From assembly GCA_000091205.1 (NCBI GenBank), contig AP006486.2: a stretch of DNA of 64,000 nucleotides, one strand, 5' to 3'. Made by a program: the position numbers and the translations under genes. Of the stretch, positions 3,380-51,523 are shown in pieces. The notes under the pieces were generated by a model that was given only the letters and a program-made list of their open reading frames with translations, did not search any database and had not been told where the DNA came from. Numbering within the stretch: the first letter of the stretch is position 1; every line of letters starts with the position of its first letter. This stretch comes from Cyanidioschyzon merolae. Lineage: Eukaryota.

Positions 3380-6300
3380 TCAAGCAGACACTGAAGCTGA
3401 ACCCGAAACCGATGTTGACGCACTCGCAGACACCGCCGCAGAAGCTGTCGCAGACACCGTCGCAGAGGGTGTCGCTGTCGCAGCCACGGGACTCGGAGTC
3501 GGTGTTGAACTAATCACGACACACTGGTTGTTGATGCACTCCTCGTCAGCGCGGCAGCAACGCATCTTGTTCACAAGGTTATCCGAAGGGATCAGGTACG
3601 TCCCGCATTGCTTCGTAGGGTCCTTGCACACACAAAATGACGGCAGCAGCACCTGTTGTTGTTGCTGCTGTTGTTGCAATTGTTGCTGCTGTTGCAGGTT
3701 ATTGTTGTTGCTGAACGGGATGTACGTGCAGTTCTGCGTCTCGGCGTTGCAGCACTCGGGGCCGCATACAGTATAGCTCGAGTTCGATACGTTGCCCGTC
3801 GTGCCGCTCAGCGAGTTCGACACATACCCGTAGGTCTGGCACACGTACTCGGTTACCGGCTGGAAGCACTCGTTGCCGAGCCCCAGGCAGCAACCAGCCT
3901 CCAGACACTGCTGCGGCGCGTAGCTCGTGCGCTGCGTCCCGTGCTGCTCTCCGTACAGGAGCGTGTTCAGCAGACGCACAAACTGGTTGTTGTTGATGTT
4001 ATTGTTCAGCTGCTGGTTCTGATTCACCGCGTTCGTGCACGGCTGGCGCTCAAACTCGCCCACCGCGCACGTCTTCTCGGGCTGGAAGCAGTACGGGTTC
4101 GACTCAAAGTCGCTCTGCTGCTTGCCGTTCTGCACCCACTGGTTCTGCGCCTGCGAGTCGTAGCAGCAGCCCTGGGCATAGCACGTAAACTGGTTGATAC
4201 CCGCGTTGCCGCACGGCTGGCGCTGCGCTCCCGGTGATGGGCAGACGGGTACTGGTGCCTGCACCTCCTGCAGCGCTACAGAGGCCTGCGGTGCATGGTT
4301 GATGTCGTAGTAGCACCAGGGTGCCAGGATGCCGTTTGCCGTTGGCTGCCAGCAGCATCCCGGTATCGCAGTGCACTCGTCTGGATAGATATAGCTCCAG
4401 CCGCAGGGGACGCGCTGCGTCACTGGAACAGCGCTGCACGCCGCTGAGACGCTCTTCAGGGTGCACGCGTTCGTCTGGGAGTTAAAGCAGCACCCGACTT
4501 GCTCGCAAGCGTCCTGGTTTGTGTACTGGCCCGGAGAACCGCAGATTTCACTCGTGCAAACTGGTGTTGGCGTTGCACTCGGTGTCGGGGTTATAAAAGC
4601 AAGTGTCGCACCAGAGGGTAGAATTGTAGAAACCTGGTCGGTGAAAGTTTGAAGCACACTTTGCAGTTCACTGGCGAGGGATGTGTCTCCTGAGATCGTA
4701 ATCACATAGGTCACAACACTGCCGCCCGCAGTGCGCACCAATGCTCGTTCCAGACGAAGATTGCTCTTGTCTAATGTGGTGGCGAGGCGCCTTGATGTGC
4801 CCGAACCGAAGACCGTGTCGCAGTTATCAGTCACGCTGACATTCACTACCTGGCCCGTGAAGCGAGCCTCGAGATCGTTCTGCAAATCCGTCGCCACGGC
4901 CAAACACAGAGAAAGATTCTGAACGGATATCGCAATCGAGGTGGAAATCGTCGTCGGCACGATTGTTGGTGACGTTGTTGCAGTTGGAGTCATCGTCGGC
5001 GTCATCGTCACTGTCGTTGGAGACGCTGTTACAGTAATCGTTGGCGATGATGTAATTGTCGGAGTTAACGTCGCAGTCAGTGTCGGTGTCGGTGTAGGTG
5101 TCAATGTCGGTGTCGGTGTCGGTGTCGCAGTCGGTGTCGGTGTCGGTGTCGGTGTCGCAGTCGGTGTCGGTGTCGCAGTAGCAGTTGGCGTAATCGTTGG
5201 TGTCAGAGTTGGCGTTGATGTTGGCGTAGGCGTAGAGGTAGGCGTAAAGAACGTTTCACTCAGTGCGAAAACATCATTGAGATAGCCAGGTCCGCTAGTG
5301 ATTGAGTATCCAGATCCGCCAAATAGGATCGGATCGGTCCCACTTGTATTCCAGAAAGCTGGTCCAAAGCGACCACCAGGTACAACACTCGGGTCGGATT
5401 CGTTGAAAACTCCATATACTGAAAGAGCATCCACACTTTGGCTTCCATTGATCCACGCCCACTGACCAAGTGTGATATCAAATACCCACAAATCGTTCAA
5501 ATCACCGGGGCTCTCACGAGTATTCCCATATCCTTCACCACCAAAAAGTAGCAGATTACCCAAAGAATCCACAAAACTTACGCCTGAGTCTCTTGCACCT
5601 GGGTAACTGGTTGGGGAGAAAGCACCGATAGTTCCATAAGATCCTGGATTATTAATAGTGGTATTTCCTGCAATCAAAAGCCATACGGATTGACTTATGT
5701 TGTAGACCCAGAGATCATTCAAGTCCCCTTGCCCTAGTGCTGTGCTGTTTCCGTAGCCATAGCCGCCGAACAACCAGAGATTTCCTTCAAAATCTGTCCA
5801 CGTATGCGAGAAGCCGCGCGCACCTGGAGCATTTGAGTTGCTCGCCACGCCAGGTGCACTATAGTTACCAGGATGGTTAACAAGTTGTGATCCGCCTCTG
5901 TATGCCCATTCGAATGTAACAGGGTTGAATGACCAAAGATCTGACAGCAAATTCCCCGCAATATCCTCACCACCAAACAACCAAAAAAGACCATCCGCAC
6001 CCAGCCAGAATGCCACGCTATCTCGGCCTCCGGGGTTGTAAATTTGACTGTAGATATCCTTCGGTCCATAGACTGGATTGGCGTTAAAAGTATCATTCCC
6101 ACTGAACCACGTCCAGATTCCCGTTTCAGTATCGTACCGCCACATGTCGTTCAGGTCTCCCGCATTACCGTTCACATCAAAGCCGTAGCCACCAAACAAC
6201 CAAAAATGGTGCTCGTCCGTCTGCCAATATGCGCTAGACTGACGGCCGCCGGGTATATTATTTGGGCTGCCTGTGCCGACTGTGCCGTACACTCCTGGTT

Positions 6301-6664
6301 GGTCAAGTTCTGAGGAACCTCCTATCCATGTCCACTCGAGCGAGGTCAGGTTGAATTTCCACAGATCATTAAGGAGGCCCTTTGCTGTGTTTCCGAACCC
6401 GAACCCGCCAAACAAGTACACTACGCTCGAACTTCCGACCCAGGCTGCAGAATAGTAACGGCCTCCTGGAACACTCTCTGGAGACGTCTGGTTCAACGTT
6501 CCATACCTGCCAAAGTTACCAGTACCCGTCTCTCCTCCTATCCAGGTCCAGCTAACCGTACTCACAGGCGACAACGCAGCCACAAGCGACACGGAAAACG
6601 TCGCCGCCAACAATAGACAAACAGCTACTCCCAGGGCACGCGCCAGAGAAAGAGCTCGAAACAT
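3380..6664 (-). CDS. Secreted mosaic protein: N-terminal signal peptide, multi-blade Kelch/galactose-oxidase-type beta-propeller, Thr/Pro-rich mucin-like linker, 3-4 trefoil (P-type)-like Cys-rich modules, poly-Gln and a Ser/Ala/Thr-rich tail
   Basis: 1094-aa uninterrupted ORF. Hydrophobic N-terminus [21 protein letters not shown]. Repeated Kelch-like blades (GGR..S/H, W.FGG.G, LNDLW motifs). A ([12 protein letters not shown])n linker is encoded by a (GTCGGT)n hexamer array. Cys modules such as [34 protein letters not shown] and [20 protein letters not shown] match the trefoil pattern CG..(I/V)...(E/Q)C....GCC(F/W/Y)...PWC. Confidence 0.7.
5075..5180. repeat. Hexanucleotide (GTCGGT)n array inside the Kelch/trefoil CDS, encoding the Thr-Pro linker
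   Basis: Direct reading of ggtgtcggtgtcggtgtcgcagtcggtgtcggtgtcggtgtcggtgtcgcag... Confidence 0.7.
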
Positions 6665-9590
6665 CTCGTTCGACGCTCTCTCAGTCCAATAAATACGGAT
6701 ATTTGTTCTTTCTCGAGTGAATATATCTTCACTATTGTTTTTTCGATATGGTCAACACGAACGTAACCGCCGTGTGTTGTGAAAGCCAAAACAACAACGC
6801 ACAACGTGATAGCGCCAAAAGCGCGGAACGCGCGCGCACTGCAGAGGAATTTGAATTGGGGTCATCATGATGCGATGAAGAATTCACGTTGATGTCGAGA
6901 CTGGAGCGTAACGGACGTAGGGAATTCGGGGTTCATAGTCCGAAATATCCAAGTTGAGAGAGGTACTGAAAGCTATATATAGGCTAGTGGGATTTCATTG
7001 GAATGAGTAACTCCCGAGTACTGCTCCTTCCAGGTGCCAGTCAGCAGGGCTCAGCAGGTCACGGCTCTAGGTAAGAAGGATAGCGAATAACGAACTATCG
7101 GTTGCTGAGGTTCGTCCACCACCCGAAACGCAGAAGTATTCCTAATGCGATTCATCTATCTTAAGTTTTCGCAAGACGATTGTGGTGGAAGTATTCCGTG
7201 TTAGACTTATTGTGTTGCAGTCCTGTTCTCGTGGTGACAGCCAAGCTGAGTAGTTGGGAGGTTTATGTAGGTCTGTACCACTGGTATTTGTCTTAGATAA
7301 GAAACATCGAATAATGAGCTCCTGCGTGTCTATTGCGAGGAAAACTAAGAAATATTTCTCGCGTGGGAAGTGGTCTCTCTTTAGGGACAGGCTGTCGCCG
7401 TTCGAAGTGGAACGCATATACGCGTACCCATGCTTCGACCTTCAACCTACGAAGCGAGAATTCGTAGGTGTTTTCTTCATCTATCCTCGTACGGCCTAAG
7501 CTTGGAGACGTGTGTGTCAACCGCTTCTGGCAAGCCGGACACCAACAAGCATTTTCAAGGCTCGCGCAGACCGGTGGTCCGCGGAGGATGCTAGCCCAAT
7601 CGGAGACTTCATAACGTTTCATCAAGTTTTCCAACAAACGCTCCGTGGCGTCTGTTTTTACATCTGCTACCTGCAATCATTTTTCTGGTGCTACAAATAA
7701 CTCTATCTATTTGAGTGTCAGCCTCACGGTATCGCGCCTACCCCGTGGTTTCTCGGTACAGAACAATACCTAGTCTCGCATCTCGGAGTGGGAACTTATA
7801 TGGACTTCGGAAAGGCATTGGTCTGAATTGGTCTTTTGACAGCAGCCAAGAAAACGCCCGAAAGTCTGCGGATTCGTTAATCGAGATCGGATCATTCGTA
7901 AATGCTTGGTCGGAGTCGCATAATATGTAACAGCTTTTCCATGACGGTGCCTAGTATCATCAAAAATCATATTCCCGGTGGCGTCGTTCCGTGACTATTT
8001 TGGTGAGTAGCGGGCAATTTAGAGGTACCATATATACCTTTGGCGACCCGATAGTTTCCCCAGCAAGATCGAGGAAAGTCTCCTCATAGTTATCGAACCA
8101 ACAGCTAGACAGAGCGACCAAGTCGACAGACCAATTCTATCTCGAATTTCCGCCTCGCTCAGGAATTTATGCCAGCACTTGTCTCGCAGTGTGCTTTTCA
8201 TAAAGCACGTTCCCCGGAACGCATCCTATTTTCTTGAACTCTCTACCCAGATACCTCGCCCTGGATTCCCTGTTCTCTTTTATCGACGTACTCGCGCGAG
8301 ATACGCTCACCGGCTCTGTCAGTGAGCGAAGCCATGATCCATTCCTTGGGCCTCTCACACTGATCTGTGTCCGATAGGCTCGCTGCTACCGCTTCATCAG
8401 AGGTTATTTGGAGCTTCTCGCATGTGAAGGCGCACTCGGGAGTCAAGAGCTTCTTCATGCTACGATTCAGCCTCTGGAATATTATACGCAATCTAACCAG
8501 CAGACTGCTTGAGTGGTTCAGCTGCTTGCCCTGCTGTATTCTGTGTGGAACGAAAACAGAATCTCAGTCCGTTCTTGCACCATGATCTTCGCAAGTTGTC
8601 CCCGGCAGTAGATGATGAATGCCTGAAACATCCTTCTATTTAACAATTTACCTTCTCGGGAGAATCTGCCTCGATCCGTTTTAATCTGTAGAGATGGTGC
8701 ACCCTGCTTCCTCGTCATAATGGCGGTGTTCAAGCACGACCCACGTTGCTCTTCTTCAGCACTGCTTCCACTGTACACACGGGGAAGGCGCCGACGGACT
8801 TCATGCCACCTTCGTAGTCCAGCGCCTTCTCTCTCGACGCTCGGTTGCTGTCGTTCGGCTTTTGCAATCTACTGATATATCCTGAAACAGCATCCGGATG
8901 CTAAGACGCACTGGTGCAAAACAATGGACTACTCCGGAACTCGTAGTACCTGTCAATACTCGGAAGTTGCCGCTCATTTTTTCCATTGTACCCATGCAGC
9001 CATTTCTTTCCCCCGGAGACTCTGGTGCGATACATCCGTCTTACGCCCGGGAAGGATCACCGAATGCATGTCATATTATGCACCAGATCCCAAAATGAGC
9101 TCCAACAATAGATATCCCCAATTCTGAACACTTTATTCTGTATTCCAGGACAAATGCGCTCTCTGCAGTTGCAGCAAATGCGCTCTACTCCGATGACGAC
9201 CGCTTCCAGCATTCTCTGGTGCATTCAGTGCGTAGCAGTTCATAGCTATCACTAGATTAATCACTATTGCATTACGCATTATGACTTACGAAGCATTGTT
9301 CGCTCTTCAAAGCAGGAGGAGCGCCATCTCGCTCGCTCAATATCCGATCGGAACTGCCGCAGGCCACCTCCTTGGTACACCGTTGCTCCCACATCTGTCC
9401 TTGAAGCAGCGGTCTGCGCTCCGAAGGCGCATCTCATTTTCATCACTAATAAACCTTACACAGGGGCCAAGACAGTCGACTTGAGGCCTCGCCTCCGTAA
9501 CGCCTGGTCGATCAGATTAAGACTCAGTTCGTAAAGCTGATCTGCCTTGTCGATTGTGTACGTTGGTTCAATAACCTGCGGTTTCGTCTT

Positions 9591-10515
9591 CTATCCCCCA
9601 TCCGTATATTTGCCACGCCACTGATAATACGAGTCCGAGTCCGGGAACTGTCCCTGGGGCGCCACTTCGGCTACGCGGCGGCCGGCCTCATCATTCGGAA
9701 CGTATTGCCGAGTGATATACTTCTGAAGAATCGGGATGAATACGTAGCGGAACCAGCCAAGCTTTTCGCGGTAGAGGTTGCTATCGGCGACAGATCCCGG
9801 GAAAATCGCCACAGAGGTCACCCCGTCGCGGCCGTATCGATCACTGAGCGCCTTCATTGTCAACACGTTCTCGGCTTTGGCGTCTTTGTAGGCTTTTGTG
9901 GGCTCAAACGGACCACTGCCTACCATGCCAGTCGTCTGCGGATCAAGCCCCGCGCCTAGACCAGACAAATCGCCGAGGCGAGCCCGCGGGGGATCGTTCC
10001 CGGCAGCGAATTCGGCGAGTGGGTCTGAGTCGTCGGAACACAATGTGCCCGCGCGATACTTTCAGCTTCGGCAACAGCTCCCGACATAGAAGCAAATGGC
10101 TCAGATGGCATACCTGCATGGTTTCCTCGATGCCGTCCACCGTGAAACGCGGTTTCTTGTCCCGCGGATGCCAGATTGCGGCATTGCAGATCAGGGCATC
10201 CAGGTGATCGACGCGCGCCACACTTGACAGCTCTCTCACAAACTTTAGTACAGAGGCGAAATCAGCCTGACCACAACGGAGCACGGTATAGGCGTCCTTT
10301 AGAAGGTTCACGCTGTTTGCTGCGCGCTCCGCCCGGTCGACGTCACGACATGCCATGACGATGTGCCAGATGCACTTGTTGATCAGAGCGTGAGCTGCAT
10401 ACAGACCGACTCCAGAGCACGCGCCCGTGATCACGGCGATCTGCGACTGTTTCGGGCCATTACGAAGATGCAGCGCGTGGTGCCGGCGCGCTACAGGCGA
10501 ACGCTGCATTACCAA
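9591..10515 (-). pseudogene. POR: Light-dependent protochlorophyllide oxidoreductase (LPOR, SDR family). The body is split over two overlapping ORFs in different frames (9943..10515 and 9591..10043), i.e. a frameshift. The upstream presequence frame also contains an in-frame TAA.
   Basis: The N-part IAVITGACSGVGLYAA...WHIVMACRD...LICNAAIW matches plant POR (VITGASSGLGL...WHVIMACRD...LVCNAAVY). The C-part PRARLGDLSGLGAGL...AYKDAKAENVLTM...GVTSVAIFPGSVADSNLYREK...FIPILQKYITRQYVPNDEAGRRVAEV matches PKANLGDLRGLAGGL...AYKDSKVCNMLTM...[25 protein letters not shown]. The switch between frames falls within about 2 codons, which leaves no room for an intron. Confidence 0.6.
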
Positions 10516-12189
10516 AGGAAGAGGACGCTGGCGGTGGTGACGATGTCCAGCTGCGAAGCAACCGTCACGAGCGGTACCCAGTGCGAACGGTGCTCTGCGT
10601 ACAGCAGGTGAGCGAACTACTCTTTAGCCCTGGTACAGCGGATCAGAGACAAACATGCCTTGTACTTTCTTGGGTTAGGTCGTCTCCGTGCGAAAGCTGC
10701 CGATCACGTCATGGGCTAGAATCGATCGCGTAAGTGTGCGTATCCAGTCAAAAACCTGTTTTGCGTAGCTGCACGAGTGATCTTCCGTCGAGTGGTGCAG
10801 ATGCCAACCTCAATCTCCGTAGACTGTCTAACTTGGAGCACAACCCGCACAAGCGCTCAACGTCAATCTCAGAAACTAGGTTAAACTCGCAGTTTTCCGA
10901 GCAACAATCTCGTCAGTACTAGTCGCAATGCGTTCCGCAACGTTGAGTTCAAAGATCACAATGATCGTTGAGGAACGTCGCTGCAGCTCACCGATGAATA
11001 ACGTAGCGGAGGTACAAGAGACTAACATCCGGTGGTAGTTTTTTTGGAAGCGCCTGCACGTCAGTTGGACACGTTACGTCTAGGGCGGGTCACTCGCCAC
11101 TACTGTACACGGCCGACGACGATGTTTTTCTTTTCAAGGGCATGTGTAGTTGGTTGTGTCGCTTCCGGGCTCGCTGTACTGGTTAGGCTCTTGAATCTAA
11201 TCTTATAGAGTAGATCAGAATACAGTATGTGCTTTTGTCGGATGCCTCGATCGTTCAAGGCGAGATGCAATGCTCAAACGTCGTGGCAGATATAGATGCA
11301 ATATGTTAGCTACGCCTCTGCCAAGATCACCGGATCAATTGACGTAGCGGGGACCATAAGTTAGACAACGAAGCAGCATGGCAATGACCTGAGCTCTCAT
11401 CAGTACCAGCCCCTGACGCAGGAAAGAAGCACAATTCAGGCCAGTTCTTTATTCCGGTGTCCGTGCAGGATGCATAGCAAGCCTAGGGAATAAACTTATA
11501 TCCGTGTTCGAGAACACTACCGTACCTATTACGGTTACGACCAATACAACTGAAGAAACTCTTATTGAGTAGAGTGTTGCATATCTTATCCACACAAGTG
11601 CAAGCCGCAGAGGAAGATACGCGTGTGATAGAAGCATCGCGGGGTATCGTTCCAGGCCCCTGCATCCCCTTGTCTGGCAGGGCAGTGCTGCGATGGGCAG
11701 CAGCGTCGGCACCAGCGACATAACCTATAGCAAGAGTGCATTCTACGGGAGTTTCCAGTCTACGATACCTTATGTTTTGCGGCAGTGCGATGCGAACACG
11801 CATGTGCCAAGGCGGGGTGTCGGACACGTGTCCTTCATCGATCGGAGTAGCGTTTCGCGCAGTGCACGCATCGCGCTCGGTGAGTGCACCTCGGGGATCA
11901 GACAGACATGAGACACGACGCGCGTGCCGCTGTTCAAGGGAAACGTGATCTCGATCAGAAGCGTGTTGTTCAGCTGTAAAAAGTTGGATTTCCGTTGAGG
12001 ACATAGCAAAGTAGAGTTTTCCTTTCGTTTTTGTTCCGAAATTAAACCAGACTAGTCAAGTGTTTTTTCGCTGTATATAACAGAAGCGTTCAAAGAGCGT
12101 TCTTTTCAAAAAAAGGAAAGCTATCACAGAGCAAGTCCACGATCCTGGAGGCCCAGGTTCGCAGGCTGCCAGAAAAAGAACATAAAACG

Positions 12190-14330
12190 GTGTCGAGTCC
12201 CGAAGAAAAGGAAGAGAAGAAGGACCGAAAGCAGGAGGCCCTACGTCGAAGGCGGCAAGAAAGACGACTGTACGACGAGAATATGGTGAAAACTTTCTTT
12301 CTTGGACATATCAAGGATCCCTGTAGGGAAAAGTTGCGAGACGCCATTGAAAAACGTGTTGACTCGTACTCGAAGAGTATTGTAAAGACGTTTTCAGGAC
12401 TAATGCATTTGGCGAGGGAGATGTATCGCGACGTAACGCAAATGGAAACAGTCGATGTTCCTGACGCGTTCTTCGATAGGACATGTATTCGATACCTGAT
12501 GCTTGGCACAGCGGAAGCGCGGAGGGAAACTCAGCTAGTGTATGCCCTCCACGAAAAGTTCGCGGAATTCCGCTCCGAGGCTACCCGACACAGGGGTGAA
12601 TGTTGTATTTACGAATACATGGCAATGGGGTGCCTCACGAATGTGAGGAGCCTTAAGATCTTAAACGTCGTTTCGTTCATGATACGCGTTCTCTTTGCGC
12701 TCTACCCGTGCCTTTTTCGGGAAGGGATTCGAGGAACCATCGATGGTATCAAGAACGATTCCCAGCATGAACGGGATATGAACTTTGTTGAGAAGAGGAC
12801 ATCACGGTGGAGAAAGAACGAGGCTTCTGTTCTCCGCTCTACCATTTAAAGGCATCGTTCGGTCTTGGAGCTTGGCACCCCAAGAGAAACACTTTCAGAT
12901 ATGAGAAAAGAAGAGAGATGTTCCCCCCCTCATCCTGCCTCACTTCATGTTATTTGACCGAGAACTCCGACGGAAGGCCCAAATAGAGCTAAGTATGGAA
13001 AAAATGACGGGTGGGAGAAACGGCATTGAAGTGGTTTTCCAGAAGCGCTTCAATTTCGTTTTTTATGCGAGTTCAAGTCGCATTTTGTGATTATCGACTG
13101 TAGAGGCCTTTTACGACTTCATGAAGGAGATCTATTTAGAGCTCGATGTAATAAACCGAGAGGTCATCGGCGAAAACAGGGACACCGACTAGAAGATTAT
13201 TTTCGATATCACGTGTCTCGAACCGGCCAAAAAAGGTATTCCAGCGGACAATCGATTTCGATATTGTGTACATAAGTGTACATCAAATGCTGTTGCAGGC
13301 ACTTCATCCTATCCCGTCTTCGTTATCGCCCTTGCCGAAGCACGAAAACAAGAAGACGGGCCGCGAAACGCATAGTCCCCATGAAAACGGCTTTGTCGTC
13401 GGCCCTAGCCCCTGAAACACGAGTATCATGACCTTTGCTGTACCCAAGCGTGAGTGCGATGGCACTGACCGAAACTCACGTCAGAAAGACAGCAGGATTT
13501 TGGGGATCTCACGAGAGAAATACTACCAAGAAGCGGGAATCATGAATGCAAGCAAGAAAATTGAGACATGAAATGCAGGAATGAAGGATCTCCTGGAATC
13601 TTTGAGCGAGGTGACGAGCCGAGAAGCGGATTTTGAAGCTTCTCGGAAATTCATAGAAGGTTCGCGTTGCTCATTAGGAGGTACTGTGGAAAGAATATAC
13701 AATGCCCCGGTGGGCTCGAATGCGAATGAATCTGGACTGTGGTAAGCAGCGGGCATTTGCGAATTGTTTCAGCCAGTTGTGCCCTGGAGGAGGATCAGAG
13801 TCAGATGCTCATTGTAGCGTATGGGGCAGGGCGCTGGAAGACCCAAAAAAGGTTTACGCCAGCTCCATCGACAAGAACATATAAGGAGTGCGCAAGGCGA
13901 TTCGTTACGATATAAGTAGATGAGCTTCGAATGACCTATACACACCATAAAGTGGGGTGCACACTTCAGAGAGTGGAGATGGAAAAGTGCCAGCGGAGCC
14001 CTGGGGAAACAGCAAAGTACGGACAGCTGACGAAAGAGCAAATGGAAAGAAGAGCCAAGTTCGTGGACTAGTTGCATTAGTGAGTACAACCCGCAACGGC
14101 ACGAAACAGATAGAGTTTGGGGATCGAGACTTTAACGCCGCCATCAATGGAAGGAAATGCGCGGTGCTGGAGAAAAGACCTCCAAAGTGGACACGAGGGA
14201 TCTTTATTGGACAACCTCTCAGAGTCGAACTATATGAGAAAAAAATTGGAAGCAGTCGTGGGTGGCCGGTCGAGAAAGACTGAGATGCGTTTGCACGTCA
14301 GCTGGAGACTTCTTGTCTAGGGCGCCGGTC
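12190..14330 (+). mobile_element. Degraded TnpB/Fanzor-like (IS200/IS605 OrfB family) element relic. A KR-rich N-terminal ORF (12190..12849) is followed by broken frames and a C-terminal RuvC-III-like motif at 14119..14182.
   Basis: ORF 13957..14283 encodes ...KQIEFGDRDFNAAINGRKCAVLEKRP, matching the TnpB/Fanzor RuvC-III signature (D.NAA.NI..RG). A second paralogous relic lies at 49959..50960 with nucleotide identity 24/25 over cgagacNttaacgccgccatcaat. The region is an AT-richer island and the usual CxxC...CxxC zinc finger is absent, suggesting decay. Confidence 0.4.
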
Positions 14331-14439
14331 ACCACTACTGTACACCGCTGGCGGCTACAACGTTATTCTTTTCAAAGACGTTTGTTTCCAGGGATGAATA
14401 CTGAGCGTCCACAGCAGCACACCTCTCCTTCGAACGCGT

Positions 14440-17400
14440 CTAGTTCATGAAACCGACACAACCCGGCTCGCCGCATAGACATGGGATTTTCATCGCATTG
14501 TCTACGTCGAACATGTAGTTGTAGGTCAGCTCCTCGCCGCGTTTAATCGCTCGAGCGCTGCGAATAACAATCACATCCTGCTTCGGTTCGTCGCTGATTC
14601 GCAGGATTTCGCTGTAGCAATTCGGACGACAAGAATGGTTAATATAGCGTGCGACGCTCCCAATCATTGTCGCATCAATCACCCAATCAGCATCTATACG
14701 AAACATGTAGCACCCAATGCCACGGCGCTCGTAGTGGCGCTCCCGAACGTCGGCCACTGGTGAGGCAATCCGCTCTCCAGCGTACTCAACGATCATCTGA
14801 TCGGCTTGGAGGTCACAGCGCGCAAACAAACCGAACCCGTGGATTCGAGAGCGCAACGGAACACAGTACTTGCGGTGTTCGAGCTGCATCTGTCGATACA
14901 GCCGACGATCAGTTGCCGTTGCAGAGACTACTCGCCAGGCGTCTCGCCTTGGAGGCACACGATCCTGCTCTGGACGTGATCGCAGTGCGCTGCACGCCCG
15001 CTCTGCAGACCCCGGGATATCGGATGCAGCTGATCGCTGTGCAAGGAGCGGGTCATATGCTGCTCCCGCTAACGCACGCTCAAACACTTCCAGGGATCGA
15101 TGCACAGGTGCAAGCTTACTCCATTTTGACTCGTTACTCGGGCGCAAGTACAGGGAACAACGTGCTGCGCCCGCGGATCGCGCTGTCGGGGATGCACCTC
15201 CGACGTCGTGGTCCGGAGAGGTATCCGCGGGCACCGACGCCAACATGCTCGTGGCTAGGTGCTGCACCAGCACCGGCACAGGGCAAAAGAAGCGCTCCGC
15301 AAGTGCCTGACGTTCTTCTGTCGATCGTTCAGCGATGCACTTGGTGAAAAGATGCGTCAAGCGCGCCGGAAGACGCGCTGCCCACAACCGCAGCACACGG
15401 GATATCATCTGGTGCCATAGCGCAGTGATGCACACGCCACTTAACCGATCGTGCGGTGCATCCAGAGCGCACAGCGAGTACCGCGGCTCGTGCGCTACGT
15501 CCGCTGTGCAACTGATAAAGTAAAGCGTTCGTTCAAAGGGTCGGATCATACTCCAAAAGCGCCGCGCTAGGTAACAATCTGGCGGCAGTCGCCACTGAGC
15601 TTCTGTCGATTCCAGCGATGTGCAGTCCAGCGCACCGTAATCGAGCAGTGTCCAGGCACCGACTCGCAATGCTGGTCTCGCATTTAGCGACAAACCGCGT
15701 ACATCCGACGGCAAAGAGTGACCCATACTCGAAAAGGGAAAACTCCACCCCGAGGGTGCAAGTCCAGCTGTCGCCTCGCGACCAAGCAGCGAGCGATGCT
15801 TCCAACACCAGCACAGGCTGCGATGATCGGAGCATTCCCACATAGCATCAGCACCAGCAGCGTTAGCATGTGTCGCTACACAGCGTACGTGAAAGACTTG
15901 GGTACAGCCCAAAAAAGAGCAGAACACAGAGGCACCCGTACGACGACACACAGAACACTTTCTGGACAAGGCAGCTTGTATCGTGCGAGAAAGGCCGGCT
16001 CCCGTTTGCGTCGACAGCGCCAAACAGCCCATGTGAATCCAGCGCAGGGTGCTTTCGGAGAGTCGCAATGGCACCAGACATCCGAGCTGCGCGCTTTCAC
16101 CTCGCTCGGGGCAAGCACATAGCGCACAACGCCGACAATCGGGAACCGCACAGAGACGCGACCACACTAGGTGCTCTGCTTGTAACGCATCTGGTGTAGC
16201 ATGTGGCGCTTGAACCCCAAACGAGGCGGATACACGCTGGCCCAGCGGCCGGCAGACAGTGACTTCAGGCACTGGGTCACGAGTTCCGTATTGGCTTAGT
16301 GAGGTATCGTTCCCCATCAAACACACCGTGTTCTCCTGCACTCCAGTTTCTGCTTCACAATTCGCAAGCATCATGTGCGCATCGATATACACCGAGTTTT
16401 GCGAATGAAGATGTTCTGCTTCGAAGGAGTTTTCCTGCTTCATCACGAGCGGCGTCCGATCGGTGCCCTCTATCCGCGTACCTGAGGCCAAGTGCGAAGC
16501 GAACGCTCCGTCTTGCACGCTCGTCAAAGCGCACGCGCCCAATGGTAGCTGTGCCTCGCACGATACATCCCGCAACCGCGTTCCCGCGAGGCAGTCTCGT
16601 AAAGGGTCTGCGCACTCAGATTCCATAGCGTCCGCATTGCACGCTAGAAGAGGTGCCTCAGAGACACGCCCCTGGCCTGAGGAGCTGCTCACCTTCGGCG
16701 AACGTGAGCAAGCAGGGCCCGTTGCCGCCAGCGTACCGGGAACATGCTGTCGCTTGACCTGATCGCCAGGAAGCGTACTGGTTGCGTTCGAGGTTGCTGC
16801 TGCTGCTGCTGCTGCTGCTGCTTCACAATCACCGCAAAGCAGCAGTGGCATAGCACCGCCGTGGCCGCTATCCAGCCGCCGACCGCAGACAACGCACGGT
16901 ACGGACGAGAGCGTCAGCAGCCACGGAGGCTCCTGAACGGAACTTGGCTCACCACGCTGCAGAACTTGCATCGAATCCCGTTTCCATGCATTCGATTCTG
17001 AGGCATCCTGTCCCGTGTTCTTTGACGCAACGGCTGCATAGGTGCCCGCCTCCTGTTCGACACCGGCTCTGTACGAATTCCTCGGCAAAGGCAAAGCACG
17101 TCCAGGGGTATCCACCTCCGGATAAGGAACGCGCTCCGAGCCTCCGCCTCCGGTGATGCGTCGAGAAGCGGCAAAAGAAGCAGCGCCGGCAGCAGCGAAC
17201 GACACAGGTGGCCTGCGCTTCACAGCGCCAAACGCGGAGGAGTCAGGTACGGCCTCGTTATCCATACAGGGCGCTTGCATCGAGTGATCGACCTCCAGAG
17301 GCACCTCCGAGTCGTTATGCTCGGTTCCTGTGTTCCATAGAACCTGTTCGGACCGTTCTATACTGGATTCGGTTGGTGTTCCTTGACGATCCGCAGGGTG

Positions 17401-29100: not shown

Positions 29101-30056
29101 AAGTGCAATACCGCAGTTCCGGGCTGGCAGACGTAAACTACGACATGTCGAAGAACGGCGTCTAGGATACGAACGAACCTTCCATAGGTCCATGACCGTA
29201 GAGTTGGCGTTCGGCATCAGAGAAGACGCCATCGACTGGATTCAACGAGGAGATATGTGCCGGCACCAAGAGCAGTGCAACGCGAAGCGCAGCAGTGTGC
29301 TCCACGACTTCTGTTGCATGATGATAAGCGACGTTGTCATCGACCAGAACAGAGGAATGTGAGATGGAGAATCTCCAACGTGCTTCACTAAAAATATGCG
29401 ATATTGGATGACCCTGTACGAATGGACATTTCGAGGCGACCACAGCACTGCATCGTCGCAGAGTCTGACGTTCACTTCAGGCTCACCTGTCCCCTATTTG
29501 CGAACAGCGGTTTGCCGCTCTTCGGGTACCCATATATTACAGATGTGCCAATTGCTCCTGAATGAAGTCTCACTGGGTGATAGGACCACCCGTCTTTTCT
29601 ACGATAAGCGTTCGCGTTTTGGTTCGAACTTCATTGTGTATTGCCCAATGCAAGACGATCTCCGACACCTGCGCACTTTTTGCGTAGTCCAGTGATGTCT
29701 CTTCATCACTGTTCGTATTAACAGCATGGAAGCATCGCGTCTGGACATTCCTTTGATATTTTTCAATGACCATTCCGACTGAAGTGGATTGACGGGGTCA
29801 TCGCGCAGATAGACGATGATAAGCGCTGTTCTGGGTACACGACGAGCGCCACTTGGACTAGGTGAAGCGTGGTTCACCCACCTGCTGACCACAGAATAAC
29901 TGAGTTGTTGTGAGATGCAGATCCTGCATCGCAACCCAGCACAAGGTGCCGATGTCTTACCGCGGGCATTCACCAACCCACAGGATACATGCCTTTTATT
30001 GAATACCTGAGAAAAATCAACCGAAACGAAAAGCGCGTGCTGGTACAGATGGCCCA

Positions 30057-30226
30057 GAATTCACTGCTCTTCATATTACACGGTCACTAGAATGCGACCA
30101 GGTTGCACGTACCACAGAAAATGCAGCAACGTACGCTGCCAGAATTCACTGCTCTTCATATTACACGGTCACTAGAATGCGACCAGGTTGCACGTACCAC
30201 AGAAAATGCAGCAACGTATGCTGCCT
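30057..30226. repeat. Two tandem copies of an 85-bp unit (98% identical) just 3' of the WD40 gene
   Basis: gaattcactgctcttcatattacacggtcactagaatgcgaccaggttgcacgtaccacagaaaatgcagcaacgta(c/t)gctgcc occurs at 30057-30141 and 30142-30226. Confidence 0.85.
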
Positions 30227-33654: not shown

Positions 33655-36286
33655 CGATCACGAGGCACGCCATACAGCAGCAATGCTGTAAATACTGGAG
33701 TGCGCCGGGCGCTCCGTACCGCACAAGTGTATGGGCCGGCTGTCGAGGCTTGTTGTGAGCGATCAAAGACACAGTTCATGTCAGTGGTGTTTGTACGAGT
33801 CGGTGATGTAGGCGTTCTCGGGAGCGTTGACGGGAGGCCTGTTACATTGTCGGAGGTGGGTATTGAAGAGTGTTTTCGGAGCGGACGTGCGGGTCATGGA
33901 ACTTGACGGGTTTTTGGAATGCTTGACGAATATTTCTGATCACTGATGGCAAGTGCGGAGTCGCCGGGGAACCCGATCATTGCATGCGTTTTGTCCGGAT
34001 AAGGCGTACCCGGCAGGACGCAGGGTGCCTTGATGTGACTCGTGTGCGTTGTTAGGGAGGGCGTTTCGTCGATGGACAGCGACTACAGCAGCGGTGCAGC
34101 CCGTGTTGCGCTAGGCGTCGACGTGAGGCTCAGTAGCCGGAAAATGATCGCTGGATCAAGAGTCGATACTCAGCGAAACGGTCGGTCTGGAGCTAGCGGA
34201 TCTTTTTGGGGTATCCAGAGCGATTCAGTGGTCTTTTGCATTGATTGCCGATTACCATCTGCTATCCTGGGGATTCTGGGTAAGTTCAACGGGCGTGCAT
34301 CGACAATACAGTCCTGGAGTGTGCTTCGGGTGTCGCTGCGCGCCGCTGCCTGCGATGCACGTGTCGCTGCGACGCAAGACAGCGAACACGAGCACTCGGA
34401 AGCGCGACGTCAACAGGCATCGAAGCGAGCACCTCGTTGCAGTCATAGAGCCATGAGTTGCGACCATGCTGGTGCAGATGCAGCGTACAAAAAAAGGCAC
34501 CAGGTCAGCTTCATTGACTTGGCAGAAGCGCATGAGCAAGCGAGCCCGCACCAATGCCCATGCCCGAATGCGCTCTCGCTATACTCGGGTTCGGTGGACA
34601 TGGAATGCGGCATCGCTTGCGCTGTTCCTGCCTTTTGATTTCTTTGAAACGCTCGTCGATGTGCAGCATCGGTATCCAAGGTGTGGCAATAAGAGCTTAC
34701 GTATTTATAGATATTGCTTGAGGCTCCGGTTCCTGTTTTCGGAATCGATGGTACGAATCTTCGCAGCTAGACTAGGCTACTTCCCCAGAATCTATGTATT
34801 TGGCGACGCTGTCGAACAAGTGTTCCTAAAATGGCCGAAATCTGCATCCTGTTCATCATTAAAATCTCCCATTCCTCTCATATGCACACGTGTAGCACCC
34901 TCAAATGATGCCGTCTTCAAGAAGTATATCCGAAATCTTCATCCAATTCATCATGAAAAGCTTTCGCGCTTCTCGTTTCTTTACGAGTATCATCCCCAAA
35001 TCATGCATTTTTCAAGTTTCCGATCTTTTTCCGGTCCGAGGAAGCTCATATGCTCAACGATTGAATGCAGCTGGATTCATGAGGAAACATATTCGACGGC
35101 TCCCGCTGACCACTTTAGGCGTTCATGGAGGAAACCTAGCAATCGCTTCCAATGGACACTAGGTCGACGTTGTGCATGAAGGCGACGTAGACGGACCAGC
35201 ATGTATAGACTCATTTGCTCGCCTGGATTTTTCTTGCAGAACTTGTTTCATCATGGACAAAATCTCGTTCCGCACATCCTCTTCCGGATCGAACAGCATG
35301 GGCTCGCGCACGCACCAGACAGAGTACCCGCCGAGGGTATCGCGCGGAAGAAGCCCCTGATCGTCAGGACCGGCAGCGGGTGCGAAAACCGAAGAGGTCG
35401 GCATCGAACGTAGCCTCTTATACCCGTCCAGGGCATGTCAAGAGAAATGAAGCAAGCGTCCGCGCGCCATAGCGCGGCGCTTGGAGAATCATGCCTCTTG
35501 GACATGCGGGCTTTCCTGATCACAATCAAGCATCACTGCTGCGAAAGGCGCAGCGCGGCGGTGCACAAAGGGCATGGAAACGGAAAGCAGGACATAGATC
35601 GCAGCTTTCGACTGTCGATGAAATTCGGTGATAACTGCTGGATACTACTTCTTCGGGACTTGAACGGAACCATCGGCATCCTCCAACTGTTAAGAACAGA
35701 GCTCTATGGAAAGAAGAACCCGTCGTATTTACACCTGGAGATAAAAGAGAGGAGAGCGCCTGCCGAGACTGGTGTTAGTGACTCTCTGGGAAGCATCGCG
35801 AGCTCTCGTGCGAACGCGCTAATGCGCTGCATCGACCTGCTCCATCAGATGCCGACATACGTGTAGCACAAACACCACGCAGCTCAGTACCAGCACGACA
35901 TACCCAAAGCTCGGTACGTACCTTCACCTGTTGGTGCTCAATGCAGCTCGAGTCGTCGCCAACGCCTTCCGAATACGCCTTGTGCCAAGGCAGATGCACC
36001 TGCCTCCACCAGCAGCTCCGGAAACGATGCGGCGCGCGCTGATCGCCGTGCGTGTGTGCGTGCGAGCATGCGAGCGTGCGTGCGTGATTGCATGCGTGCA
36101 CGGCGGTAATCGCGCCTCCGTGAACCAGCCACAGCGTCGGATTCGATCGCCGCGCGGCTGCATTCACGGAAATCGCCTGATCAACAGCATTGTTCTGCGC
36201 TGGGCGTGCTACCCGATCGGTGCGACGGTGAATACGCTGGTGCTCCAGTCGCTCGCTTTCGTTTCACTCGTAACCAATCAGTATCC

Positions 36287-40658: not shown

Positions 40659-41006
40659 GTGGCTATCGACGAAGCTGCATTCCACAGTAGCATGATCCAT
40701 CGCCCGCAATATGCTACCAGGGGTTCCCGTCTCTTCTGCTCCGAAAGAAAACGGTCTTGGTTTTGGACTTTAGTCACCGCAGCGATCGCTTCTAGTCGAG
40801 CACTGGCTATCGTTGTGCGCGAAGGCAGCGTGGACGGATCACGATTCCTGGCCATGATCTCCAGCCTGGATATTCCTTCTGGTACGTGTTTCATCATGAA
40901 CAACATCGCGTTCCATGAACCCGCTGTCGGATGGATCAGCATAAGCTTTCACGCGCTGCAGACAGCGTTCTTGACGAGCGGATCGCACAGAATAAAAAGT
41001 CCATGA
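40659..41006 (+). repeat. Copy 1 of a dispersed ~0.3-kb element family with conserved coding potential (boxes AIDEAAFHSSM ... ISSL..SGTCFIMNN)
   Basis: Homologous over ~100 aa (same frame) and ~70-80% nt identity with 51524..51958(-). Box 1 is also present at 59385..59465(-) and 63772..63852(-). Confidence 0.45.
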
Positions 41007-49958: not shown

Positions 49959-50960
49959 GTGTGTCTCTTTTTTCCAATAGCTAGTTCACTTGGTCCTGAG
50001 GACACTGGGATACAGTCGCAAAAAAATATTCTAGTTCACGCACAGCCATCTTCCACTGTAATCGAAATCCCCACAGCTTTCCGGGAACGTCGAGATCGAT
50101 ATGAAGCACAGGAGCGTCGACTTGTTTTCTATGCCGATGGGCCCTTTTTCCGGAAGAAACCGTCGGAGCGTATATGGGTATGCGCATAGAAGACGTCCGT
50201 GGTGTGTATGATCGAACTCAAAGAGAACGAGGATATCAACACCAGTTCTAGCTGCATTGGAGTCATTCTGCGGCCTCAGTTTCGCTCGCAGAGAAGGATC
50301 ATACGAAAGCAACCACTTTGCCGAATCATTGAAGACTTTTTTTCAAGACGTCTGGTGACTTTCTTCTTTTACGCAACGTGGTATTCCACCATTCTTCTCG
50401 CGTTCCTGCTTTTGAAGATTCTATCAGGATAGAGATGCTTTTCATTCCAGCGTTCTCTTCGTGGTCCAACATCATTGAAGGAGCATTTTCTATCCTGAGA
50501 AGTAATGATCGCTTCTCTAGGCGAGTCGCTGAATCTTTAAGCCCATTCGTATACCGGGACACGTTTGGTCTTTCTTGCGCAAGCACTTCTCCATCTGGGA
50601 AGCGCCTCACCTAAGGCCATAAAAAAGTGCGTTCATTTGCAGATATAAAAAATTTAAGCAATGAGCTGGGGTCTACACTTCAGAGCGTCAAGATGGAGAG
50701 AAGGCAGCGGATCATTGCGGCAACAGAAAAGCTCAGAGAGCTGACAGAGCCGGATTTGGCAATGAGGGCACGCATCCTAGCAGTCCCCACTATGCTGCGT
50801 TCAACCAGAGGCGATAAACGCATGAAATTCGTGAACCGAGACGTTAACGCCGCCATCAATTTCAGGAGATCTGCAGTGCTGAAGACGAGACCTGCGGAAA
50901 TTACGTGAATCAACTTTTTGGGACACCCTCTCAGATCCGAGGTGTGCAGGGAGAAACTGA
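49959..50960 (+). mobile_element. Second degraded TnpB/Fanzor-like relic: four consecutive plus-strand ORFs in shifting frames ending with the RuvC-III-like motif (50825..50890) and a conserved tail
   Basis: ORF 50627..50908 ends ...TMLRSTRGDKRMKFVNRDVNAAINFRRSAVLKTRPAEIT, paralogous to 13957..14283. Similarity continues past the stop into the next frame (INFLGHPLRSEV vs GIFIGQPLRVEL). The region is an AT-richer island. Confidence 0.45.
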
Positions 50961-51523
50961 AACCGATAGCAGGGGGCCTGTCGAAACAGACGGGGAGGCA
51001 TCTGTGATTGCATACTCATTTACCGTCCATAGATGTGAACCGTTGTTCGCTTCACTGGAACATAGTCCAGAACGCGGGCGAACACGTGAAAGTGCGCTGC
51101 CTCATCTAGTTGTCATGAACATGAGCGTCTGTGAGATTTCTCTGGACTGCTTCCTTCCCAGCTGGGTCATTTCCGGGACTGGATACGCTGGTGCTTCGTG
51201 TCCCGCCAGCTACGATGTCAGCGCTAGCGTGACGATTACGCAGTTCCCCGCAATTGCAGACGCATTTCGTTACCAGGCAGAGGTTGTGATCTATGCTTCG
51301 CTTCTCACTTTCGTCTACTTTGTAAAAAGCCTCAATGCGCCTTTCGCAACGATGCCACCTGACTCAGGTCGATTGTTCCCAAACGTTCACGCCAACTCCA
51401 CTGCCAGGCGGTGCACTGTGGCGAGTGACGGCTTGCTTCAGGACCCAGAACATCTCAGAGGCGGATACAAAAGGCTTCTCTCGATAGTCTCCCCGGCTCC
51501 GGGTCCAATGCCTTACTCCATGA

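What the first reader, a model, noticed from the sequence alone, without database searches (positions are those of the whole stretch)
12190..14330. Relic of a TnpB/Fanzor-like (OMEGA-family RNA-guided nuclease) element, copy 1
ORF 13957..14283 ends with GDRDFNAAINGRKCAVLEKRP. This is the RuvC-III D-x-NAA-x-NI-RR signature that terminates TnpB (IS200/IS605 OrfB) and eukaryotic Fanzor proteins. It sits in an AT-richer island, together with a KR-rich (NLS-like) 219-aa ORF 1.1 kb upstream and broken frames in between. The CxxC zinc finger normally preceding RuvC-III is not recoverable, which argues for decay. Fanzor/TnpB elements are rarely annotated in compact algal genomes.
Basis: partly seen in the sequence, partly recalled or inferred. 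Interest (0 to 1): 0.7.

Follow-up and report, generated by a model that had tools for sequence, protein, structure and literature searches.

The report
Dead Fanzor1 transposon copy in red alga

Summary
The motif is real: ORF 13957-14283 reads ...EFGDRDFNAAINGRKCAVLEKRP. The window is Cyanidioschyzon merolae 10D, from a 513,455-bp chromosome.

A profile of close relatives maps twelve collinear pieces across 12538-14314 (E down to 2e-30). The 219-aa "KR-rich" ORF is the N-terminal domain of the same protein (E 2e-28).

Direct Pfam, NCBIfam and PDB searches found nothing. A broader profile of algal relatives hits solved Fanzor1 structures (E 3e-22, 3e-14, 4e-7). An AlphaFold model of the nearest full-length relative matches only Fanzor1 first (Foldseek E ~1e-17).

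The copy is dead:
- start codon lost
- about eight frameshifts
- three in-frame stops
- RuvC-I Asp changed to Ser

It spans about 11868-14390, perhaps from about 11243, and is wider than reported.

Bao & Jurka (2013) already described this family as CMe-1A: about 150 copies, about 80% identical to the consensus, about 3 kb, no terminal inverted repeats.

One correction: the missing CxxC zinc finger is not decay. It is absent from all 14 family members and 56 clade members examined.

Verdict: interpretation supported, already known, low interest.

The parts
11243..11867 (+). Possible 5' extension of the element, about 625 bp. It is present in only some paralogous copies. It is a candidate for the TE-N2_CMe-like 5' 635 bp that Bao & Jurka include in the CMe-1A consensus.
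   Evidence: Non-syntenic loci L023 and L021 align from 11243 and 11314. Other loci start at 11631, 11655, 11711 and 11813. The match to the 635 bp in PMC3627910 is inference from length only.
11868..14390 (+). Core CMe-1A-type element, shared by all paralogous copies. It consists of a 5' leader, a broken Fanzor1 gene and a 3' untranslated tail ending in a hairpin.
   Evidence: blastn to L001/L002 and to about 80 metagenome loci gives 73-79% identity. nhmmer 5' model covers 11868-13216 (E 0) and the 3' model covers 13380-14394 (E 1e-282). In the 5' alignment, flanks diverge before CATCGCGCTCGGTG. Paralog conservation falls to background at about 14380.
12123..12125 (+). Former start codon, now ATC. 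It is followed by an in-frame TAA at 12183-12185.
   Evidence: L002 has AGTTATGAAAAAGAAAGTGCACGATCCTGGAGG where the window has AGCTATCACAGAGCAAGTCCACGATCCTGGAGG.
12190..12849 (+). 219-aa ORF. It is the N-terminal (K/R-rich tail plus helical) domain of the Fanzor1 protein and the longest surviving open stretch.
   Evidence: The clade profile A2 hits 12208-12702 at profile positions 4-170, E 2.4e-28. BLASTP to P0172 residues 31-198 gives 36% identity, E 4e-27.
12923..13391 (+). Middle part of the protein, broken over three frames. The family's variable acidic repeat linker is largely missing here.
   Evidence: Family HMM pieces: 12923-13063, 13060-13110, 13106-13186 and 13182-13391. HMM positions 287-321 are not matched.
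13392..13424 (+). RuvC-I motif relic, FVVGPSP*NTS, where the family has FVVGADPGNTN. The catalytic Asp is now Ser (13407-13409) and the next Gly codon is a stop (13413-13415).
   Evidence: consensus; coordinates. D421 is invariant in the clade alignment.
13808..13837 (+). LIVAYGAGRW. This is the position of the canonical RuvC-II glutamate, occupied by Gly as in other Fanzors (rearranged active site).
   Evidence: The rearranged RuvC-II site is described in PMC10530073.
13913..13939 (+). Stop codon (13913-13915) followed by VDELRMTY. The alternative catalytic Glu is retained at 13922-13924.
   Evidence: E592 is invariant in the clade alignment. The PDB alignments place it on the DEFRTS / DEYKTS motifs of PpFz and SpuFz.
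14062..14151 (+). RGLVALVSTTRNGTKQIEFGDRDFNAAING. This is the cysteine-less counterpart of the zinc-ribbon (TNB) segment plus the RuvC-III motif. The catalytic Asp is retained at 14128-14130.
   Evidence: The family HMM piece 14044-14250 scores E 2.3e-30. No CxxC pairs occur in 14/14 family and 56/56 clade members.
14318..14320 (+). Ancestral stop codon (TAG) of the Fanzor1 reading frame.
   Evidence: Family proteins end ...GRRLHVSWRLL. The window in frame 2 reads ...MRLHVSWRLLV*.
14331..14345 (+). Conserved 3'-tail motif (A/G)CCACTACTGTACAC.
   Evidence: It occurs only at 14331-14345 and 11096-11110 in the window. It matches exactly, once per 3' end, in 30 of 82 loci.
14358..14384 (+). 3' subterminal hairpin, degenerate in this copy: CAACGTTATTCTTTTCAAAGACGTTTG.
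   Evidence: Most copies form a 9-10 bp stem in one of two variants, CGTCGTTCGA-CTTT-CGAACGGCG or AACGTTTTTC-TTTT-GAAAGACGTT. By reading the two sequences side by side I count one G:C-to-T:A double change between them; no tool computed this.

Best explanation
Window 11868-14390 (+), possibly from about 11243, is one old, inactivated copy of the CMe-1A transposable-element family of Cyanidioschyzon merolae.

Its single gene encoded a Fanzor1 protein. Fanzor1 is the eukaryotic relative of bacterial TnpB and uses a guide RNA to direct a split RuvC nuclease domain to cut double-stranded DNA.

Shown here:
- family membership
- domain order
- the state of the three catalytic positions
- the inactivating lesions

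Inferred from characterised Fanzors (PMC10530073; solved SpuFz, PpFz and GtFz complexes): the ancestral protein entered the nucleus through its K/R-rich N-terminus. It bound a guide RNA transcribed from the 3' end of the element and cut DNA matching the guide.

This copy can do none of that. It has no start codon, about eight frameshifts and three in-frame stops, and its RuvC-I aspartate is now serine. It is neutral junk DNA, about 50 bp from the stop codon of the convergent 1938-aa ORF that ends in a SET-like domain (identified by eye only).

How the family moved is not known. It encodes no transposase and has no terminal inverted repeats. It ends in a conserved 3' hairpin.
For: Organism: four window ORFs are identical to C. 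merolae 10D proteins BAM79109, 79110, 79113 and 79114 on a 513,455-bp record.

Family:
- 128 database proteins match the stitched C-terminal half at 50-73% identity, E down to 1e-133.
- 427 related metagenome stretches were confirmed by tblastn.
- DNA identity to other copies is 73-79% over the whole element.
- The family HMM maps twelve collinear pieces, and the clade HMM maps the N-terminal ORF.

Fanzor1 identity:
- The clade profile hits PpFz 9cf0 (E 2.7e-22), SpuFz 8gkh (E 2.5e-14) and GtFz 9cer (E 4.2e-7). The DPG, DEFRTS and RD.NAA.N motifs align.
- The AF2 model of P0172 has pLDDT 89 and pTM 0.87.
- Its seven best PDB matches are all Fanzor1, at E about 1e-17 and TM 0.52-0.73, followed by Cas12 proteins.
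- The relic aligns with P0172 at E 4e-61.

Lesions.

Prior description: Bao & Jurka 2013 list one Fanzor1 family, CMe-1, in C. merolae. They give CMe-1A as about 150 copies, about 80% identical to the consensus, about 3 kb, no TIRs, TSDs undetermined (PMC3627910).
Against: - No direct hit of the relic, or of the narrow family profile, to Pfam, NCBIfam or PDB TnpB/Fanzor entries. The link to Fanzor is transitive, through relatives.
- The Repbase CMe-1A consensus could not be compared directly. Identity with that named family rests on host, gene type, copy number, length, divergence and lack of TIRs.
- The defining C4 zinc finger of the 2013 motif is absent.
- No guide-RNA structure was detected in the 3' 190 nt. 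That region is no more conserved than the coding sequence.
Confidence: 0.93

Rival explanations
1. The locus is a live, intron-containing Fanzor gene. On this view the frame changes are introns, not decay.
For: Some algal Fanzor1 genes have 5-10 exons (PMC3627910; CrFNuc in PMC10530073).
Against: - Stops and substitutions fall inside the conserved motifs themselves: D-to-S and G-to-stop within GADPGN, and P-to-stop directly before VDEF.
- Frame changes occur with overlapping or adjacent profile coordinates, leaving no intervening sequence.
- The start ATG is mutated.
- Other copies carry the same region as one continuous ORF of 450-590 aa.
Confidence: 0.02
2. The NAAIN motif is a chance match or belongs to an unrelated protein family.
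For: Pfam, NCBIfam and PDB give no TnpB or Fanzor hit for the relic.
Against: - Collinear profile matches run over about 2.1 kb with E down to 1e-30.
- The relatives fold as Fanzor1.
Confidence: 0.01
3. It is a bacterial IS200/IS605-type TnpB acquired by recent horizontal transfer, or contamination, rather than a eukaryotic Fanzor.
For: Fanzor and TnpB are homologous and share the RuvC-III motif.
Against: - It is embedded between C. merolae nuclear genes.
- The named relatives are green-algal proteins from Tetrabaena and Haematococcus.
- It has the Fanzor-type rearranged RuvC-II site.
- The best structural matches are Fanzor1; no TnpB entry appears among the 50 matches listed.
- There is no TnpA next to it.
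Confidence: 0.02
4. The relic is part of a larger mobile unit of at least 7 kb. On this view the unit is anchored at the Fanzor 3' end, carries upstream host DNA including a protochlorophyllide reductase (POR) copy, and moved by one-ended, Helitron-like transposition.
For: - Several metagenome contigs share window about 7236-14353 at 76-84% identity but have four or more different downstream flanks, which start at the element's 3' end.
- 5' ends of copies are graded (11243 to 11868) while the 3' end is constant.
- There is a conserved 3' hairpin.
- One-ended transposition is reported for Fanzor1-carrying Helitron2 elements in Chlamydomonas (PMC3627910).
Against: - Recombination between dispersed copies, or segmental duplication ending in a copy, gives the same pattern, because homology must stop where the repeat stops.
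- In L083 identity drops from 84% (POR side) to 71% (Fanzor side), as expected for a recombinant or a different copy.
- No asymmetric terminal inverted repeat was found.
- No RepHel gene was seen among the ORFs of at least 70 aa listed for 6.6-11.9 kb. The planned profile scan of 6650-9650 was prepared but never run.
- Metagenome misassembly across a repeat is not excluded.
Confidence: 0.12

Closest known systems
CMe-1A / CMe-1 Fanzor1 element of Cyanidioschyzon merolae (Bao & Jurka 2013, Mobile DNA 4:12; Repbase)
   Same: - same host
- single Fanzor1 gene and no transposase
- about 3 kb if the 625-bp 5' extension is counted
- no TIRs
- high copy number
- old: 73-79% DNA identity to other copies, against the published 'about 80% to consensus'
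   Different: Nothing was found that separates it. The Repbase consensus itself could not be aligned here. This copy is broken, whereas a few family members are reported intact.
Solved Fanzor1 nucleases SpuFz1 (8GKH), PpFz (9CF0) and GtFz (9CER)
   Same: - overall fold (TM 0.52-0.73 for a close relative of the relic)
- RuvC-I DPG aspartate
- Gly at the canonical RuvC-II site, with an alternative Glu in DE(F/Y)(R/K)TS
- RuvC-III RD.NAA.N
- K/R-rich disordered N-terminus
   Different: - only 12-15% sequence identity
- the CxxC...CxxxxC zinc ligands of SpuFz and PpFz are replaced (HHELGC ... LALVSTT in the family; LLWCxST in the wider clade)
- no guide RNA identified
Chlamydomonas Fanzor1 elements CRe-1/2/3 (CrFNuc, 'Fanzor1c') on Helitron2 transposons
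   Same: - The named relatives by profile are green algae: Tetrabaena (Volvocales by my own knowledge of taxonomy, not looked up here) and Haematococcus.
- 3' hairpin.
- Constant 3' end with variable 5' ends.
   Different: - no asymmetric terminal inverted repeats
- no detectable link to a RepHel element
- intron-less gene
Bacterial TnpB (IS200/IS605 OrfB; Pfam PF01385, PF07282)
   Different: - no Pfam hit
- no TnpA partner
- rearranged RuvC-II site
- much larger N-terminal half
- no zinc ribbon

Membership tests
Fanzor1 (eukaryotic TnpB-like RNA-guided nuclease) | Significant sequence and fold similarity to experimentally characterised Fanzor1 proteins | tested here: met
   The clade profile hits PpFz, SpuFz and GtFz at E 2.7e-22, 2.5e-14 and 4.2e-7. 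The AF2 model of relative P0172 matches the same three at Foldseek E about 1e-17, TM 0.52-0.73. The relic aligns with P0172 at E 4e-61.
Fanzor1 (eukaryotic TnpB-like RNA-guided nuclease) | RuvC-I catalytic Asp (DPG motif) | tested here: not met
   It is invariant in the family and clade (D421). In this copy it is Ser (13407-13409) and is followed by a stop. The feature was lost by decay, so this counts against activity, not against ancestry.
Fanzor1 (eukaryotic TnpB-like RNA-guided nuclease) | Rearranged RuvC-II: Gly or Pro at the canonical Glu position, with an alternative Glu downstream | tested here: met
   LIVAYGAGRW lies at 13808-13837 and VDE at 13916-13924, with 32 residues between the second Gly and the Glu. 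The feature is defined in PMC10530073.
Fanzor1 (eukaryotic TnpB-like RNA-guided nuclease) | RuvC-III RD.NAA.NI motif with catalytic Asp | tested here: met
   GDRDFNAAING is present, with the Asp at 14128-14130.
Fanzor1 (eukaryotic TnpB-like RNA-guided nuclease) | C4 zinc finger (OrfB_Zn_ribbon / TNB) between RuvC-II and RuvC-III, part of the 2013 motif definition | tested here: not met
   None of 14 family members and none of 56 clade members has two CxxC knuckles. PF07282 gives only sub-threshold hits, E 0.002 and 0.07, in two relatives. This is a clade-level loss. The segment still folds in the model at pLDDT 78-88.
Fanzor1 (eukaryotic TnpB-like RNA-guided nuclease) | Structured guide RNA (fRNA / omega RNA) encoded at the 3' end of the element | tested here: inconclusive
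   RNAalifold on 46 3' ends predicts only 4 pairs with no covariation. There is no Rfam hit and no excess conservation at the 3' end. Only a terminal 9-10 bp hairpin is consistently present.
Fanzor1 (eukaryotic TnpB-like RNA-guided nuclease) | RNA-guided DNA cleavage | not testable with these tools
   This needs biochemistry on an intact family member. This copy cannot encode a protein.
CMe-1A element (Repbase; Bao & Jurka 2013) | Found in C. merolae; about 3 kb; one Fanzor1 gene; no TIRs; many diverged copies | tested here: met
   Host. Length is 2.5 kb for the core, or 3.15 kb with the 5' extension. No terminal inverted repeats were found. Four hundred or more related stretches occur in related genomes. 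Identity is 73-79%.
CMe-1A element (Repbase; Bao & Jurka 2013) | Alignment to the Repbase consensus; 5' 635 bp equals TE-N2_CMe | not testable with these tools
A 625-bp optional 5' extension (11243-11867) fits by length only.
Helitron2 non-autonomous element | 3' subterminal hairpin | tested here: met
   Hairpin at 14358-14384, present in most copies.
Helitron2 non-autonomous element | Asymmetric terminal inverted repeats: a 5' terminus complementary to the sequence just upstream of the 3' hairpin | tested here: not met
   The reverse complement of GCCACTACTGTACAC never occurs on the element strand in the window or in 82 loci. No terminal inverted pairs were found by the repeat finder.
Bacterial TnpB (IS200/IS605 OrfB) | Match to Pfam PF01385/PF07282 or to the NCBIfam TnpB models | tested here: not met
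   Searches gave no hit. It is related only at superfamily level.

The most novel reading that the evidence does not exclude
CMe-1A copies may be more than passive relics. Their constant, hairpin-bearing 3' end could be the anchor of a one-ended copying process that carries variable amounts of upstream DNA. On this reading, that process duplicated the neighbouring POR-containing host segment, giving C. merolae its two intact POR genes plus the pseudogene at 9591-10515.
Probability: 0.1. Interest if true: 0.5.

Novelty: already known. Interest (0 to 1): 0.15.

Why it matters
It matters little in itself. This is one of roughly 150 decayed copies of a transposon family published in 2013.

It has three practical uses:
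1. It shows that standard Pfam or NCBIfam TnpB models miss this algal Fanzor1 clade entirely. Annotation pipelines will therefore leave such relics unlabelled.
2. It shows that the clade has lost the zinc-binding cysteines while keeping the fold. This bears on what the TNB domain needs in order to function.
3. It gives exact coordinates and lesions for masking this part of the C. merolae chromosome.

Tried and rejected
Searches that found nothing useful:
- Pfam on the two ORFs and a stitched C-terminal half: no hits at E up to 10.
- NCBIfam and PDB phmmer with the stitched relic: only chance hits, a primase and an FAD oxidoreductase.
- Pfam on intact family members: nothing relevant.
- The narrow family profile against PDB: nothing. 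A wider clade profile was needed.
- RNAalifold on 46 3' ends: no consensus structure.
- Rfam on 11000-14600: no match.

Hypotheses rejected or left open:
- A more conserved 3' end as a sign of an overlapping guide RNA: not seen.
- Helitron2-type asymmetric inverted repeats, or any TIR: none.
- Outer extension of the 3' hairpin by covariation: the apparent outer pairs are conserved CAC/GTG, not covarying.
- Independent copies of the 3' hairpin elsewhere in the window: none. The hairpin therefore belongs to the element, not to a target repeat.
- Solo copies of the 11243-11867 segment in the fetched loci: none.
- A Mariner-Fanzor composite in other loci: one DDE-like hit in L027, not adjacent to a Fanzor. 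This is unresolved.

Steps that could not be completed:
- Look-ups of the two C. merolae 10D POR genes, to read their neighbourhoods: not on record.
- A six-frame Pfam scan of 6650-9650 was prepared but not run.
Full report
**Observation**

ORF 13957-14283 (+) ends ...KQIEFGDRDFNAAINGRKCAVLEKRPPKW..., and a 219-aa ORF with a K/R/E-rich start lies at 12190-12849. GC is 0.47-0.48 across 12-14 kb, against 0.53-0.59 in the neighbouring gene.

- YTMPRWARMRMNLDCGKQRAFANCF
- LIVAYGAGRWKTQKRFTPAPSTRTYKECARRFVTI*VDELRMTY
- FVVGPSP*NT

These lie in order upstream of the RD.NAA motif but in different frames. That is the layout of a TnpB/Fanzor RuvC domain.

**Organism**

Four window ORFs are identical to C. 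merolae 10D proteins BAM79109, BAM79110, BAM79113 and BAM79114, on a 513,455-bp record.

**Direct family searches fail**

- Pfam, NCBIfam and PDB sequence searches with the relic gave nothing relevant.
- Pfam on intact relatives also gave nothing.
- A narrow family profile found nothing in the PDB.

**Relatives**

- The stitched C-terminal half finds 128 proteins at 50-73% identity, E down to 1e-133. All come from JGI or ENA metagenomes. The window's own proteins also have cluster members at 90% identity or more among JGI, ENA and Logan metagenome sequences.
- Their consensus shows FVVGADPGNTN, LVVAYGAGRW, RFVTIPVDEFRTSYTHHELGC and RGLLALVSTT..KRMEFVNRDFNAAINIR.
- A family HMM places twelve collinear pieces on 12538-14314, with E down to 2.3e-30.
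- A full HMMER scan of 1.84 billion representatives found 1,437 relatives, many of 600-700 aa. Two are named, from the green algae Tetrabaena socialis and Haematococcus lacustris.
- The 80-sequence clade profile hits the 219-aa ORF at E 2.4e-28. That ORF is therefore the N-terminal domain of the same protein.

**Link to Fanzor**

- The clade profile hits Parasitella Fanzor1 (9cf0, E 2.7e-22), Spizellomyces Fanzor1 (8gkh, E 2.5e-14) and Guillardia Fanzor1 (9cer, E 4.2e-7). The DPG, DEFRTS and RD.NAA.N motifs align.
- D421, E592 and D658 are invariant or nearly so in the clade.
- An AlphaFold2 model of the nearest full-length relative, P0172, has pLDDT 89 and pTM 0.87.
- Its seven best PDB matches are all Fanzor1, at E about 1e-17 and TM 0.52-0.73. 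Cas12 proteins follow at E 1e-4 or weaker.
- The relic aligns to P0172 at 43% identity over 281 aa (E 4e-61) and 36% over 170 aa (E 4e-27).
- Gly at the canonical RuvC-II position, with a Glu further on, is the rearranged site described for Fanzors (PMC10530073).

**State of this copy**

- The start ATG is now ATC (12123-12125), followed by a TAA at 12183-12185.
- There are eight frame changes between the twelve profile pieces. Two of them rest on weak pieces.
- In-frame stops lie at 13413-13415, 13569-13571 and 13913-13915.
- The RuvC-I Asp is Ser (13407-13409).
- The alternative Glu (13922-13924) and the RuvC-III Asp (14128-14130) survive.
- The ancestral stop codon is at 14318-14320.

It is a pseudogene.

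**Zinc finger**

None of 14 family members and none of 56 clade members has two CxxC knuckles between the alternative Glu and RuvC-III. PF07282 reaches only E 0.002 and 0.07 in two relatives. The loss is a property of the clade.

**Boundaries**

- All paralogous copies align from about 11868 (CATCGCGCTCGGTG...).
- nhmmer models built from other copies cover 11868-13216 and 13380-14394.
- Conservation among 42 copies is 0.73-0.89 up to 14339, falls to 0.66 for 14340-14379 and to 0.40 beyond 14380.
- Some copies extend further 5', to 11813, 11711, 11655, 11631, 11314 or 11243.
- The longest extension, about 625 bp, fits the published statement that the 5' 635 bp of CMe-1A equals TE-N2_CMe. That match is inference from length only.

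**The 3' tail**

- The 3' tail carries the motif (G/A)CCACTACTGTACAC.
- It also carries a 9-10 bp hairpin in two variants. By reading the two sequences side by side I count one G:C-to-T:A double change between them; no tool computed this.
- No TIRs or Helitron2-type inverted repeats were found.
- No guide-RNA-like consensus structure was detected, and there is no Rfam match.

**Literature**

Bao & Jurka 2013 (PMC3627910) list one Fanzor1 family in C. merolae. They describe CMe-1A as follows:
- about 150 copies, each about 80% identical to the consensus
- a consensus of about 3 kb
- target-site duplications undetermined
- no TIRs and an unknown transposon class
- a few copies still intact

The present locus fits on every point that could be tested. 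The finding is therefore a correct rediscovery of a known family.

**Other pieces in the window**

- A 345-bp CMe-1A fragment lies at 50661-51005 (nhmmer E 2e-51).
- A 110-bp 3' terminus lies at 11046-11155 (E 3e-18).
- A more diverged Fanzor relic, seen only at protein level, lies at 28192-27986 (-).
- The relics at about 28 kb and about 50.7 kb each lie just downstream of a Tc1/mariner-type DDE_3 relic (Pfam E 3.6e-6 and 5.8e-5).

**Neighbourhood**

- A protochlorophyllide reductase (POR) pseudogene lies at 9591-10515 (-). C. merolae 10D has two intact POR genes elsewhere.
- Several metagenome contigs share the segment from about 7.2 kb to the element's 3' end, but have different sequence beyond it.
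- The simplest reading is segmental duplication or rearrangement by recombination among dispersed copies. In L083, identity drops from 84% on the POR side to 71% on the Fanzor side, which fits this.
- A one-ended, 3'-anchored mobilisation that carries upstream DNA is not excluded. I give it about 0.1.

**Verdict**

The element is already known. Interest is low.

Noticed in passing
window 29383-29174 (-) with 28192-27986 (-); window 50342-50560 (+) with 50657-51005 (+): Two Tc1/mariner/IS630-type DDE relics (Pfam DDE_3, E 3.6e-6 and 5.8e-5) each lie just upstream of a Fanzor1 relic on the same strand. This hints at an older Mariner-type transposon that carried Fanzor1. Only one, unclassified, Fanzor1 family is published for C. 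merolae.
   Followed up: partly
window 9591-10515 (-): A light-dependent protochlorophyllide reductase (POR) pseudogene, split into ORFs 9943-10515 and 9591-10043. A 331-aa counterpart in L075 matches Arabidopsis PORB at E 1.5e-55. C. merolae 10D has two intact 403-aa POR genes on other chromosomes (BAM81403, BAM79708).
   Followed up: partly
window about 7236-14353 compared with L036, L067, L013, L041, L083 and L085: This whole segment (the POR copy plus the Fanzor element, and in L085 also part of the trefoil-domain gene at 3471-5567) is shared at 71-84% identity by contigs. Their sequence beyond the element's 3' end differs from the window and from each other. The cause could be a duplication or rearrangement breakpoint at a CMe-1A copy, or an assembly artefact.
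   Followed up: partly
window 11046-11155 (+): A solo 3' terminus of another CMe-1A copy, with the tail motif and a decayed hairpin. It lies about 90 bp before the possible 5' extension of the main copy.
   Followed up: yes
clade alignment A2; family alignment A1: The whole algal Fanzor1 clade (red and green algae) lacks the two CxxC zinc knuckles of the TNB domain. The segment is still modelled with confidence (pLDDT 78-88).
   Followed up: partly
L001-L082, 5' ends of copies (equivalent to window 11243-11868): Copies share one 3' end but have graded 5' ends, at 11243, 11314, 11631, 11655, 11711, 11813 and 11868. The last of these is the most common. The cause is unknown: truncation, alternative 5' modules or one-ended copying.
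   Followed up: partly
L001 10465-10693, L002 2547-2702; window gap between 13241 and 13380: A 75-bp (25-aa, acidic) tandem repeat of variable copy number lies in the linker before RuvC-I of family members. It is mostly absent from the window copy.
   Followed up: no
window 58589-58888 and 62976-63275; 35221-35352 and 40864-40995; 30054-30223: Other repeats: a 300-bp pair at 98% identity, a 132-bp pair at 71% that also matches L001 and several loci, and an 85-bp tandem duplicate.
   Followed up: no
window 3380-6664 (-) compared with L085 11883-12887: The 1094-aa ORF is read by eye as Kelch-like, Thr/Pro-rich and trefoil-like. Its counterpart in L085 is only 334 aa, and that L085 gene carries a precomputed Pfam Trefoil hit. 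The window has about 3.6 kb that L085 lacks, between positions 5567 and 9209.
   Followed up: no
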